DNA of 50,138 bases from positions 1 through 50,138 of the IMG/VR virus record IMGVR_UViG_2877948078_000005. One strand, 5' to 3'. The DNA comes from a virus (lineage: Duplodnaviria > Heunggongvirae > Uroviricota > Caudoviricetes). Position numbers: made by a program. Below, piece by piece: positions 45,001 to 48,000 of this stretch (position 1 is its first letter; each line of letters opens with the position of its first letter).

Positions 45001-48000
45001 TAACTCAATAATCGCCGGATGGTGAAGGCTTCCTTTTACCCGAATTCAGCGCGGTGCAGCGCATATAACGTGGAGAACAAAATGTCATTTATTAAAACTT
45101 TTTCCGGGAAGCATTTTTATTATGACAGGATAAATAAAGACAACATCGATATTAACGATATCGCGGTTTCCCTTTCAAATATCTGTCGCTTTGCCGGTCA
45201 TCTTTCACACTTCTACAGCGTCGCCCAACATGCGGTGCTTTGCAGCCAGCTGGTGCCGCAGGAATTTGCTTTTGAAGCGTTAATGCATGATGCAACAGAA
45301 GCGTATTGCCAGGACATCCCCGCGCCACTGAAACGCCTTCTTCCTGACTATAAACGGATGGAAGAAAAAATAGACGCCGTAATCCGTGAGAAATACGGGT
45401 TACCCCAGGTTATGAGTACGCCCGTGAAATATGCCGATCTCATCATGCTGGCAACCGAACGCCGTGATCTCGGGCTTGATGATGGCTCTTTCTGGCCTGT
45501 ACTGGAAGGCATCCCGGCAACAGAGATGTTCAACGTGATTCCACTGGCACCGGGCCATGCCTACGGGATGTTTATGGAACGCTTCAACGAGTTATCGGAA
45601 TTACGCAAATGTGCATAACTCATGTAGTTAGTTTTTCTGGCGGGAGAACATCTGCATATCTTGTTCACCTGATGGAAGAACAAAGAAAGGCTGGCAATAA
45701 CGTCTGCTACATCTTTATGGATACCTGTTGCGAACATCCGCTGACATACCGCTTTATTCGGGAGGTTGTGAAGTTCTGGGGCATACCGCTAACTGTGTTG
45801 CAGGTCGATATAAATCCAGAGCTTGGGCAGCCAAATGGTTATACGGAATGGGAACCAAAGGATATTCAGACACGAATGCCGGTGCTTAAACCGTTTATGG
45901 ACATGGTAAAAAAATATGGCACGCCATACATCGGCGGCGCGTTCTGCACTGACAGATTAAAACTCACCCCCTTCACAAAATACTGCGATGACCATTTCGG
46001 ACGAGGGAATTACATCACATGGCTGGGTATTCGTGCAGACGAACCTCGTAGGCTGAAACCGAAATCGGGCGTCCGGTATCTTGCCGAGCTATCTGATTTT
46101 GATAAGTCGGATGTTATCCGGTGGTGGCATAAACAACCTTTTGATTTGCAAATCCCGGAGCACCTCGGGAACTGTGTTTTCTGCATCAAAAAGTCCACGC
46201 AAAAGCTGGGGCTTGCATGTAAAGACGAACCTGGTCTGATGCGAGTTTTTAATGAGCTGGTTACAGGTAAACACGTCCGGGATGGTCACCGAAAGACAAA
46301 TAAAGACGTTATGTACCGTGGTCATCTGAGCCTTGACGGGATTGCCAGAATGTATGCCGACAGCGACTACAGAAATTTGTATCAGGCGATGGTGCAAGCC
46401 AGGCGATTCGATACCGGCTCGTGTTCAGAGTCATGTGAAATCTGGGGTGATCAATTGGAATTGAAATTCGAAGAGGTGGTGGCATGACAATCGTAAAAAC
46501 CCATACCGGCATTGTGATCACCAAAGACGGCCCGCAGGTAAAAAAACTTCACCAGACAGAGCGGATGTGGGTCGTCGGCAAAAACGAGTTTTACCACAAA
46601 GAAACCGGACGCCGCCACTTTGCAGAAAATACGCGCCGCCGACTACTGATCGACACCATCAAGCCTATCGAGGTGAAGCATGTTTAAACAGAACGAAAAA
46701 TCTATCGCTCAAATTGCTGAGTATATCCCGCGTGCGTGCCGGGGTATGCAGTTGCAGGAAGCCAAAGCGCGCCTGGAGAAAAAAATTGCGCTCTATATCG
46801 ATGACGGCTGTGATGCTGCCGTTCTTAACGCGGCGTTCGCGCCAGCTCTTAACAGTCATACGCGGGAGTCTTTTTTTTCGCGCATCGCAGCGCAGATCCG
46901 TAAAGGAGGCAACCAGTGAGCAATTATCTGTACTGGTCTGGCTTAGTGGCTAACATTGCGCTCATGTTGTTCGTGGCTCTTTGCATCTGGGTTTGGTTTA
47001 TCTGGCCTTTTGTAGAGGCCATGAGCATAACTCGGTGCTTTATTTGCGCATCAAAGACTTATGGATGCAAACCAACTGTAAGAGCAATTATCAGAACTTT
47101 AAAATACTGGTATCTGGATTTGCTTTTCGGCAGGGGCTGGACGCGAATTAGTAACCGCCAGTTTGAATGGGAAGGCGTCGGTAACTGGCGAATTCACAGC
47201 AGCAAAGAAACGCAGGAGGTGAAGTAATGGGGAAAAATAAGGATGCACCAATCGTTTCCATTGGCGCGGTGTTCTTCACCCCAGAAACCGGAGACATCGG
47301 ACAAGAATTCTATACGGTTGTCAGCCTGGAAAGTGCTATGGAGCAAGGGGCCACACCTGACGGCGATACCATCCTGTGGTGGTTGAAACAGAGCCCTGAA
47401 GCACGAGCTGCAATCTGTATTGATGATACTTTGTCGATCAGCGATGCACTCTCTGAACTGAGCCATTTCATTAATCAGCATGCAGACAATACAAAATATT
47501 TAAAAGTCTGGGGTAACGGGGCCACCTTCGACAACGTAATTTTACGTGGAGCTTATGAGCGAGCAGGACAAATCTGCCCGTGGGCATACTGGAATGACCA
47601 CGATGTACGCACGATCGTTACGCTTGGGCGTTCCATCGGATTCGACCCCAAAATGGACATGCCTTTCGATGGCGAACGGCACAACGCCCTGGCCGATGCC
47701 CGTCATCAGGCAAAATATGTTTCCGCTATCTGGCAGAAATTAATTCCTGCCACCAGCACAGAATTATGATTTTCCCGGGTGCAGCCGGTTTTGATGGAGA
47801 AAATTATGAACACCTTGTTTTTACTGATGGCTGAATTCAATACCCCTAACATTGAACTCTCAGCAGTTAGCCAAAAGTTCTTTGGCATGAGTCCAGCCAC
47901 GGCAGAAGCAAAAGCAAACGCTTGTAAGTTGCCCGTTCCAACATATCGCATCGGCACATCACAAAAAGCAAAACGTTGCATCAATATTCAGGATCTTGCG

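What the first reader, a model, noticed from the sequence alone, without database searches (positions are those of the whole stretch)
45609..47769. Translationally coupled PP-loop (PAPS reductase-like) / three small ORFs / divergent exonuclease cluster
Five consecutive + strand genes have 1-4 nt start/stop overlaps: a PAPS-reductase-fold protein (SFSGGRTS motif), 67-aa and 79-aa proteins, a 103-aa membrane protein with a GTG start behind AGGAGG, and a 180-aa DnaQ-like exonuclease fold lacking a clear motif I. PP-loop enzymes in phages are linked to DNA modification and defence or counter-defence; this combination and its tight coupling suggest a functional module whose role is unknown.
Basis: partly seen in the sequence, partly recalled or inferred. 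Interest (0 to 1): 0.6.

Follow-up and report, generated by a model that had tools for sequence, protein, structure and literature searches.

The report
Mosaic prophage cargo slot, NinC homolog
The five overlapping genes are real, but they are independently shuffled cargo genes in the early-left operon of an E. coli lambda-like prophage: a homolog of lambda's NinC, three small genes of unknown function and an exonuclease that a 30-bp deletion has probably inactivated.

Summary
The five + strand genes exist at the stated coordinates. Their start/stop overlaps are 4, 8, 4 and 1 nt, plus 10 nt with upstream yfdR. The window matches E. coli 2014C-4135 at 100% identity and is a lambdoid prophage integrated at dusA.

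Gene 1 is 78% identical over its full length to phage lambda NinC. It sits here in the early-left operon instead of the nin region. Gene 5 is an Rv2179c/DexA-like DEDDh exonuclease.

The module idea fails. In 58 related loci the backbone yfdQ-yfdR...exo-xis is conserved, but the four genes between yfdR and exo occur in every combination; 30 loci have none and 2 have all four. Only 20 of 5,426 complete E. coli genomes carry at least 80% of the block. Overlapping gene chains are also the norm in lambda's nin region, where neighbouring genes are functionally unrelated.

The DNA-modification and counter-defence idea is supported for NinC only. A 55%-identical Vibrio phage homolog fused to Dam lies in a two-gene segment shown to give escape from Dnd restriction. 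Six of the seven longest family members are fused to DNA adenine methyltransferases. I rate the finding ordinary, with modest interest.

The parts
45609..46487 (+). ninC homolog: PP-loop (PAPS-reductase-fold) protein of 292 aa. It has the SGGRTS PP-loop and six invariant Cys (C113, C126, C189, C192, C272, C276).
46484..46687 (+). 67-aa basic soluble protein of unknown function (phrog_1226). The family was found only in prophages of Enterobacteriaceae.
   Evidence: PHROG E 1.2e-42. 119 homologs, none with a Pfam domain. pN/pS 0.12.
46680..46919 (+). 79-aa protein of unknown function (phrog_1344). It nearly always travels with the 67-aa gene.
   Evidence: PHROG E 2e-52. The 67+79 pair is present in 505 of 5,426 E. 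coli genomes, with or without ninC upstream. pN/pS 0.32.
46916..47227 (+). 103-aa single-pass membrane protein of unknown function (phrog_2531). It has a GTG start behind AGGAGG and is the rarest cassette.
   Evidence: PHROG E 9.1e-27. Hydropathy peak at residues ~8-34. Present in 41 of 5,426 E. coli genomes. Homologs of 25-37% identity occur in 617 other phage records. The AF2 model reaches only pLDDT 70 and is all-helical.
47227..47769 (+). Rv2179c/DexA-like DEDDh 3'-5' exonuclease, in an allele that lacks codons 1-10 and therefore the D-x-E of motif Exo I.
   Evidence: Pfam PF16473 at 232 bits, matching from profile position 10. Protein and DNA alignments show a clean 30-bp deletion relative to KOr024, mEp460 and 720R4. 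The deletion junction is in 1 IMG/VR contig, against at least 120 with the intact junction.
44129..45618 (+). Conserved upstream backbone of the operon: yfdQ (DUF2303, 44129-44953) and yfdR (HD 5'-deoxynucleotidase, ends at 45618).
   Evidence: Pfam and RefSeq annotation. Present in 54 and 57 of the 58 exonuclease-anchored loci.
47779..48117 (+). PrtN-type excisionase gene, followed by a 12-bp-stem bidirectional terminator-like hairpin (48090-48117) that ends the operon.
   Evidence: Pfam PyocinActivator E 1.4e-22. mEp460 annotates the homolog as excisionase. Present in 58 of 58 loci. Hairpin.

Best explanation
The region is the distal part of the early-left (PL-type) operon of a lambdoid, SfV/mEp460-like prophage integrated at dusA in E. 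coli. The operon has a conserved backbone, yfdP-yfdQ-yfdR ... exonuclease-excisionase. Between yfdR and the exonuclease lies a hypervariable cargo slot. In this prophage the slot holds three independently assorting cassettes: a ninC homolog, the 67-aa plus 79-aa pair, and a 103-aa membrane protein. The start/stop overlaps are how lambdoid early operons are normally built, and they are where the cassettes are joined. They do not indicate shared function.

NinC homolog. Shown: it is a PP-loop protein of the lambda NinC family. Inferred: it binds ATP at SGGRTS and adenylates a substrate. Its six invariant cysteines probably hold an Fe-S cluster and/or relay sulfur, as in the nearest structural neighbours. 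It acts on phage DNA or on the host's DNA-modification machinery, so that the phage escapes modification-dependent restriction, most plausibly phosphorothioate-based Dnd/Ssp restriction.

Exonuclease. It is a DexA/Rv2179c-like DEDDh enzyme. In this prophage a 30-bp microhomology (ATG...ATG) deletion removed the D and E of motif I, so it is most likely catalytically dead.

The three small proteins are real, conserved phage accessory genes whose roles are not known.
For: - Identity and context: 100% match to E. coli 2014C-4135. A cI-like repressor lies upstream, and the excisionase, a Panacea toxin-antitoxin pair, a dusA fragment and zur lie downstream.
- Mosaicism seen from the exonuclease: in 58 loci, xis is present in 58, yfdR in 57 and yfdQ in 54. 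The slot content is none of the four genes in 30 loci, 67+79 only in 9, 103 only in 8, ninC only in 6, ninC+67+79 in 3 and all four in 2. The yfdR-to-exonuclease interval is 667-3590 bp, with 43 distinct lengths in 66 loci.
- Mosaicism seen from NinC: the 67/79 pair follows ninC in 9 of 16 loci of the >=91% clade and in 0 of 64 others. The 103-aa gene is in 0 of 80. The 78%-type always lies next to ninD and ninE and, in all but one locus, directly after ninB.
- E. coli genome counts out of 5,426: ninC 535, 67+79 pair 505, ninC|67 junction 232, 103-aa gene 41, whole block at >=80% coverage 20.
- In other loci the same ninC allele is followed, through the same ATGA overlap, by ead/Ea22-like genes.
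- NinC: 78% identical to lambda NinC. It is 55% identical to the PAPS domain of Vibrio phage 44E38 p0018, which lies in a two-gene segment whose transfer gave escape from DndFGH restriction. Six of the seven longest family representatives are fused to DNA adenine methyltransferases of two Pfam families, in both orders. The best defence-library match is SspD at 9e-15.
- Fold neighbours are PP-loop enzymes, including Fe-S-dependent sulfurtransferases.
- Exonuclease deletion.
Against: - No experiment addresses this E. coli protein or lambda NinC. Lambda ninC is dispensable on laboratory hosts, and no protein interactions were found for it.
- In the Vibrio work the transferred segment carried two genes, and the PAPS domain was fused to Dam. 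The PAPS domain alone has therefore not been shown to be sufficient.
- The C-terminal CSESC motif is modelled at low confidence (pLDDT below 50), so the Fe-S site is an inference.
- The ninC-67-79 trio recurs in 232 genomes. The association is not significant in my sample (p = 0.11), but it is in the positive direction (odds ratio 3.5).
Confidence: 0.8

Rival explanations
1. The five genes are one co-functional DNA-modification or counter-defence module whose translational coupling fixes subunit stoichiometry.
For: All five are co-transcribed with overlapping stops and starts. The exact block recurs in a few strains and in one IMG/VR contig.
Against: The four middle genes assort freely. Only 20 of 5,426 genomes carry at least 80% of the block. 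The same kind of overlap links functionally unrelated genes in the lambda nin region. In this window the exonuclease lacks its catalytic motif I.
Confidence: 0.04
2. ninC plus the 67-aa and 79-aa genes form a three-gene functional unit, for example an enzyme with a small specificity or regulatory partner.
For: The ninC|67 junction is intact in 232 E. coli genomes, including phage-plasmids and Stx phages. The odds ratio is 3.5 in the exonuclease-anchored sample. In the Vibrio phage a second small gene was co-transferred with the PAPS-Dam gene.
Against: About half of each occurs without the other: 505 genomes have the pair, about 415 have the PL-type ninC, and 232 have the junction. Lambda-type and more distant NinC homologs never have the pair, 0 of 64. 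The Vibrio partner p0019 is a DUF6475 protein that sits upstream of the PAPS gene, not in the position of the pair. Fisher p = 0.11.
Confidence: 0.12
3. Gene 1 is a true PAPS/APS reductase, an auxiliary metabolic gene that boosts host sulfate assimilation.
For: The Pfam and RefSeq name is 'phosphoadenosine phosphosulfate reductase family'. APS reductase 2goy is among the top structural matches at 23% identity.
Against: The NCBIfam CysH equivalog scores 16.7 bits against a cut-off of 154. Only residues 5-72 match the Pfam model, and only about 160 of 292 residues superpose on any PP-loop enzyme. There is no ECGLH catalytic motif in the sequence. Fusions are to DNA methyltransferases, not to sulfur-assimilation genes.
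Confidence: 0.03
4. The 30-bp deletion in the exonuclease was selected rather than being neutral decay. Inactivating the nuclease would let the phage avoid triggering a host defence that senses it, as seen for retron Ec48 escape mutants in a Vibrio phage exonuclease.
For: The deletion is in frame and keeps the Shine-Dalgarno sequence and the TAATG coupling. Piel et al. mapped retron-escape mutations, including deletions, to a phage DEDDh exonuclease.
Against: The allele is rare: 2 of the 10 full-length matches listed, and 1 IMG/VR contig against at least 120 intact. The Vibrio exonuclease belongs to a different Pfam family (RNase_T, about 23% identity). A 3-nt microhomology deletion in a resident prophage is what neutral decay looks like.
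Confidence: 0.08

Closest known systems
Phage lambda NinC (Orf290, NP_040635.1), nin region
   Same: 78% identity over the full length, the same size, and the same PP-loop and cysteine pattern. Both are nonessential accessory genes embedded in a chain of overlapping genes.
   Different: Here the gene sits in the early-left operon between yfdR and the 67-aa gene. In lambda it sits in the PR-side nin region between ninB and ninD.
Vibrio phage 44E38.1/.2 p0018, a PAPS-Dam fusion (Piel et al. 2022; preprint 10.1101/2021.05.05.442762)
   Same: 55% identity over 96% of the protein. It belongs to the same family (phrog_33262). It is the only family member with an experimental phenotype: the segment carrying it gives escape from Dnd restriction.
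   Different: The Vibrio protein carries a C-terminal Dam domain and was transferred together with p0019 (DUF6475). The E. coli protein is stand-alone, and this prophage's Dam gene lies about 8 kb away at 37025-37711.
DndC / SspD, the PP-loop sulfurtransferases of DNA phosphorothioation
   Same: PP-loop N-terminal half and conserved cysteines. PADLOC SspD matches at E 9.1e-15.
   Different: The DndC equivalog scores 15 bits against a cut-off of 290. The SspD match covers only residues 5-152. No dndA/D/E or sspA/B/C genes lie nearby.
Rv2179c-like / T4 DexA-like DEDDh 3'-5' exonucleases (PF16473)
   Same: 232-bit Pfam match. The FDN (Exo II) and H-x4-D (Exo III) motifs are present. There is weak similarity to the 227-aa PDB exodeoxyribonuclease 8kel; that this entry is T4 DexA is my recollection and was not checked.
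   Different: The window allele lacks the first 10 residues, including the D-x-E of Exo I.
Lambda nin region 'chain of interlinked genes' (Kroger & Hobom 1982, cited in PMC10695390)
   Same: A run of small, functionally unrelated, nonessential genes joined by ATGA-type overlaps.
   Different: A different operon (PL-side) with a different gene content apart from ninC.

Membership tests
Lambda NinC family (phrog_424) | Full-length sequence similarity to lambda NinC | tested here: met
   78% identity over 290 aa. phrog_424 at E 4.4e-92.
Lambda NinC family (phrog_424) | Location in the nin region, between the replication genes and Q and next to ninB | tested here: not met
   The gene lies between yfdR and the 67-aa gene in the early-left operon. 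The 78%-type homologs lie next to ninD and ninE and nearly always directly after ninB.
PP-loop ATP pyrophosphatase superfamily | SGGxxS PP-loop motif at the N-terminus of a Rossmann-like fold | tested here: met
PP-loop ATP pyrophosphatase superfamily | ATP pyrophosphatase or adenylation activity | not testable with these tools
   This needs a biochemical assay.
Assimilatory PAPS/APS reductase (CysH) | Score above the curated equivalog cut-off, and the C-terminal ECGLH catalytic cysteine motif | tested here: not met
   NF002537 scores 16.7 bits against a cut-off of 154. There is no ECGLH in the sequence.
DndC (DNA phosphorothioation) | Score above the TIGR03183 cut-off, and a dndA/B/D/E gene neighbourhood | tested here: not met
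   15.1 bits against a cut-off of 290.4. No dnd genes are in the operon.
SspD (Ssp phosphorothioation) | Full-length match to the SspD profile, and an sspA/B/C neighbourhood | tested here: inconclusive
   PADLOC E 9.1e-15, but only residues 5-152 match profile positions 2-125 of 277. No ssp genes lie nearby, so it is a relative and not a member.
Phage anti-Dnd PAPS-domain proteins (Piel et al. 2022) | Confers escape from DndFGH restriction | not testable with these tools
   Only homology to p0018 (55% identity) is shown.
Rv2179c-like DEDDh exonuclease (PF16473) | Pfam score above the gathering threshold | tested here: met
   232.1 bits against 27.
Rv2179c-like DEDDh exonuclease (PF16473) | Complete DEDDh catalytic set: Exo I D-x-E, Exo II D, Exo III H-x4-D | tested here: not met
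   The Exo I residues lie in the deleted MNNLMIDLET. Exo II (FD102N) and Exo III (H152-x4-D157) are retained.
   All combinations are observed. 2 of 58 loci have all four slot genes and 30 of 58 have none. 20 of 5,426 genomes carry the block.

The most novel reading that the evidence does not exclude
The PL-operon NinC clade, present in roughly 400 of 5,426 complete E. coli genomes, could be a stand-alone early-expressed enzyme that chemically modifies phage DNA, or hijacks host Dnd/Ssp components, to defeat phosphorothioate-dependent restriction. That would finally give lambda's NinC a function. A second, separate possibility is that the in-frame loss of exonuclease motif I is an adaptive escape from a defence system that senses this nuclease.
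Probability: 0.3. Interest if true: 0.6.

Novelty: new member of a known kind. Interest (0 to 1): 0.25.

Why it matters
Mostly as a correction. Start/stop overlap in a lambdoid early operon should not be read as evidence of a functional module. The 'divergent' exonuclease is a common gene with a small deletion.

The useful lead is NinC. It is one of the last lambda genes without a function, and it is common: the family has 362 clusters at 50% identity with E <= 1e-30, and about 10% of complete E. coli genomes carry a copy. The 55%-identical anti-Dnd-associated homolog and the repeated methyltransferase fusions make a simple experiment worthwhile: plate ninC+ and ninC- lambda on Dnd- or Ssp-carrying hosts.

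The yfdR-to-exonuclease slot is also a compact, well-delimited hotspot in which to look for accessory or counter-defence genes.

Tried and rejected
- Tested whether the upstream overlapping gene yfdR corresponds to the Vibrio partner gene p0019. It does not: there is no similarity, and p0019 is a DUF6475 protein.
- Looked for a conserved neighbour of NinC homologs in 80 loci by clustering same-strand ORFs within 2.5 kb. Only generic nin-region genes recur (NinB, NinG, NinE, a helicase, RusA). Dam is adjacent in 7 loci. No dedicated partner emerged.
- Searched solved structures by sequence and by fold. No close structure exists, only general PP-loop enzymes. A weak hit to a chain called 'PptA' (E 0.39) disappeared when I searched with a profile, and no paper could be found for it.
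- The BFVD viral fold search added nothing beyond 'PAPS reductase' labels. The afdb50 library was unavailable.
- A homolog search for the 67-aa protein gave only domain-less prophage proteins of Enterobacteriaceae.
- The 103-aa protein gave a low-confidence helical model (pLDDT 70, pTM 0.48), which was not worth a fold search.
- A literature search for the Rv2179c-like exonuclease in phages found nothing specific.
- The Vibrio phage's retron-triggering exonuclease is of a different Pfam family, so that parallel is weak.
- JSS1_004, a known anti-Dnd protein, is a kinase/shutoff protein and is unrelated to NinC.
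Full report
WHAT IS THERE

The window is 100% identical over the finding to the chromosome of E. coli 2014C-4135. RefSeq annotates the same five genes there with the same boundaries. The surrounding genes define a lambdoid prophage:
- a cI-like S24/HTH repressor at 42286-42978, followed on the same strand by yfdP, yfdQ (DUF2303) and yfdR (HD 5'-deoxynucleotidase);
- the five genes of the finding;
- a PrtN-type excisionase;
- then, on the other strand, a Panacea-domain antitoxin with a membrane protein, a dusA fragment (the attachment-site duplication) and the host gene zur.

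A terminator-like hairpin follows cI at 42999-43016. A 12-bp-stem bidirectional hairpin at 48090-48117 follows the excisionase. Nothing comparable lies between them on the + strand. The finding is therefore the distal part of the early-left, PL-type operon.

CHECK OF THE OBSERVATION

All five ORFs are present. yfdR overlaps gene 1 by 10 nt. SFSGGRTS is at residues 8-15. The 103-aa gene starts at a GTG 6 nt after AGGAGG and has one hydrophobic segment at about residues 8-34.

All five are real genes. pN/pS against allelic copies is 0.11, 0.12, 0.32 and 0.09 for gene 1, the 67-aa gene, the 79-aa gene and the exonuclease. Each matches a PHROG family, with E-values from 9e-27 to 4e-92. The 103-aa protein has homologs of 25-37% identity in 617 other phage records.

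GENE 1 IS A ninC HOMOLOG

A translated search of phage genomes found 78% identity to gene 51 of phage O276, annotated 'Lambda gp NinC'. Direct comparison with lambda NP_040635.1 gives 227 identities in 290 aligned residues with no gaps.

In lambda and in every 78%-type locus in IMG/VR the gene lies in the nin region, next to ninD and ninE and nearly always directly after ninB. The allele in this window belongs to a >=90% identity clade that sits in the early-left operon of SfV/mEp460-like and Stx-type prophages and of some phage-plasmids. Of the 535 complete E. coli genomes with a ninC match, about 415 are of this type.

Lambda ninC is nonessential, and no interaction partners were found for it.

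WHAT NinC LOOKS LIKE

In a 32-sequence alignment spanning 51-93% identity, the invariant positions include the PP-loop S10-G-G-R-x-S15, D38, E42-H43 and six cysteines: C113, C126, the C189-x2-C192 pair and the C272-x3-C276 pair.

It is not CysH (16.7 bits against a cut-off of 154) and not DndC (15.1 against 290.4). The best match in a defence-system library is SspD at E 9e-15, over the N-terminal half only.

WHAT NinC PROBABLY DOES

Two lines of evidence point to DNA modification and anti-restriction.

First, the protein is 55% identical over 96% of its length to the PAPS domain of Vibrio phage 44E38 p0018. Piel et al. transferred p0018, a PAPS-Dam fusion, together with its neighbour p0019 into a sensitive phage. 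The recombinants then plated at 10^11 PFU/ml on a host retaining DndFGH restriction. [quoted passage not shown] A 2026 paper repeats this reading for PAPS reductases found in Aca-regulated operons.

Second, an exhaustive profile search found 362 clusters at 50% identity with E <= 1e-30. Of the seven top representatives longer than 450 aa, six are fused to DNA adenine methyltransferases. Five are PF05869 Dam, with the methyltransferase N-terminal in two and C-terminal in three. One is a PF02086 D12-class enzyme. Fusions in both orders, and to two methyltransferase families, indicate repeated independent events and therefore a shared DNA-directed role.

This prophage carries a PF05869 Dam gene at 37025-37711 and a PF01555 methylase at 32482-33540, in the other early operon.

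The chemical step is inferred: adenylation at the PP-loop followed by sulfur or another nucleophile, using an Fe-S cluster. So is the choice between NinC modifying DNA itself and NinC subverting host Dnd/Ssp proteins.

GENE 5 IS A COMMON EXONUCLEASE WITH A SMALL DELETION

The protein matches PF16473 (Rv2179c-like) at 232 bits, but only from profile position 10. Alleles in strain KOr024 and in phages mEp460 and 720R4 are 98-100% identical and carry ten extra N-terminal residues, MNNLMIDLET. The DNA alignment shows a clean 30-bp deletion between two ATG triplets. It leaves the Shine-Dalgarno sequence and the TAATG junction intact.

The lost residues include the D-x-E of motif Exo I. Exo II (FD102N) and Exo III (H152-x4-D157) remain. 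Two of the five DEDDh catalytic residues and the first strand are gone, so the protein is most likely inactive.

The deletion junction occurs in one IMG/VR contig, against at least 120 with the intact junction. Among the ten full-length E. coli matches, two carry it. The gene is not divergent.

THE FIVE GENES ARE NOT A MODULE

Three independent views agree.

(a) Close relatives. In mEp460 and 720R4 the ninC position holds an EaE/SfV-orf29-like gene. The 67/79-aa pair is retained. In mEp460, ead/Ea22, a small ORF and DUF551 genes replace the 103-aa gene.

(b) Anchoring on NinC in 80 IMG/VR loci. The 67/79-aa pair follows ninC in 9 of 16 loci of the >=91% clade and in 0 of 64 others. The 103-aa gene is in 0 of 80. 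In L012 and L022 the same ninC allele is followed by ead/Ea22-like genes through the same ATGA overlap.

(c) Anchoring on the intact exonuclease in 58 loci with at least 3.5 kb upstream. The excisionase is present in 58, yfdR in 57 and yfdQ in 54. The content between yfdR and the exonuclease is:

| Slot content | Loci |
|---|---|
| none of the four genes | 30 |
| 67+79 only | 9 |
| 103 only | 8 |
| ninC only | 6 |
| ninC+67+79 | 3 |
| all four | 2 |

No pairwise association is significant (Fisher p = 0.11, 1.0 and 1.0). The interval ranges from 667 to 3590 bp, with 43 distinct lengths in 66 loci.

Among 5,426 complete E. coli genomes:

| Feature | Genomes |
|---|---|
| ninC | 535 |
| 67+79 pair | 505 |
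| ninC\|67 junction intact | 232 |
| 103-aa gene | 41 |
| at least 80% of the block | 20 |

The picture is a conserved backbone with a hypervariable cargo slot, in which cassettes are joined at gene boundaries. The lambda nin region shows the same overlapping chain (4, 4, 34, 4, 11, 4, 23 and 4 nt by the coordinates). It links a recombination mediator, NinC, a junction-specific endonuclease, a phosphatase and the antiterminator Q. It was described in 1982 as 'a chain of interlinked genes' (reference listed).

RESIDUAL POSSIBILITY

The ninC-67-79 trio is common enough (232 genomes, odds ratio 3.5) that a functional link cannot be excluded. Each part occurs without the other about half the time, however, and more distant NinC homologs never have the pair. 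Linkage by descent is the simpler explanation.

THE THREE SMALL PROTEINS

- The 67-aa protein is basic and soluble, and its family was found only in prophages of Enterobacteriaceae.
- The 79-aa protein has no recognisable domain.
- The 103-aa protein is a single-pass membrane protein with conserved VWFIWPxVEAxSITRC and FEWEGxGxW motifs. Its model is of low confidence.

I cannot assign functions to them.

VERDICT

It is wrong in treating the five genes as a unit and in calling the exonuclease divergent. All components belong to known families. The arrangement is one of many combinations in a known type of mosaic region. Interest is modest and rests on NinC as a testable anti-restriction candidate.

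Noticed in passing
window 48112-49171 (- strand), promoter 49341-49314: A Panacea-domain (SocA/PanA-like) antitoxin gene at 48683-49171 lies upstream of a 182-aa protein with C-terminal hydrophobic segments at 48112-48660. A perfect 12/12 sigma-70 consensus promoter precedes the pair. A related phage record annotates 'PanT' at this position. This is probably a PanA/PanT-type toxin-antitoxin cargo next to the attachment site.
   Followed up: partly
window 37025-37711 (-) and 32482-33540 (-): The prophage carries two orphan DNA methyltransferases. One is a PF05869 Dam-type enzyme, the same family that is fused to NinC homologs elsewhere. The other is a PF01555 N6/N4 methylase.
   Followed up: partly
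window ~49461-49565 (-): A dusA (tRNA-dihydrouridine synthase) 5' fragment, annotated as a pseudogene in the identical RefSeq genome, marks the prophage end. The phage is therefore integrated at dusA. zur lies beyond the end of the window.
   Followed up: partly
window 39379-41387 (-): Two tandem paralogous genes of 285 and 384 aa each combine an Ash domain with a Rha regulatory domain. They are antirepressor-like and sit in the early-right operon.
   Followed up: no
window 36702-37028 (-): A 108-aa protein consists only of a LexA DNA-binding domain, with no S24 peptidase domain. It lies between the Dam and RusA genes and may be a non-cleavable LexA-like repressor carried by the prophage.
   Followed up: no
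L089 (Vibrio phage 44E38.2) 27757-32744: The Vibrio phage that carries the anti-Dnd PAPS-Dam gene also has a YfdQ homolog, 41% identical to the window's YfdQ. It lies two genes downstream of a DEDDh (RNase_T-type) exonuclease, in a run with ERF, YqaJ and SSB genes. YfdQ (DUF2303) may belong to phage recombination or exonuclease modules in both lineages.
   Followed up: partly
window 45618-47227, compared with L091-L170: The interval between yfdR and the exonuclease is a compact hypervariable slot. It is 667-3590 bp long, with 43 distinct lengths in 66 loci. In other prophages it holds ead/Ea22-like, DUF551 and EaE-like genes, among others.
   Followed up: partly
E. coli plasmids of about 92-100 kb (e.g. 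NZ_CP031917.1, NZ_CP194955.1, NZ_CP149562.1): The ninC homolog (about 90-91% identity) and the 67/79-aa pair also occur on plasmids of about 92-100 kb, which are probably phage-plasmids. There are 74 plasmid places for ninC and 163 for the pair.
   Followed up: no
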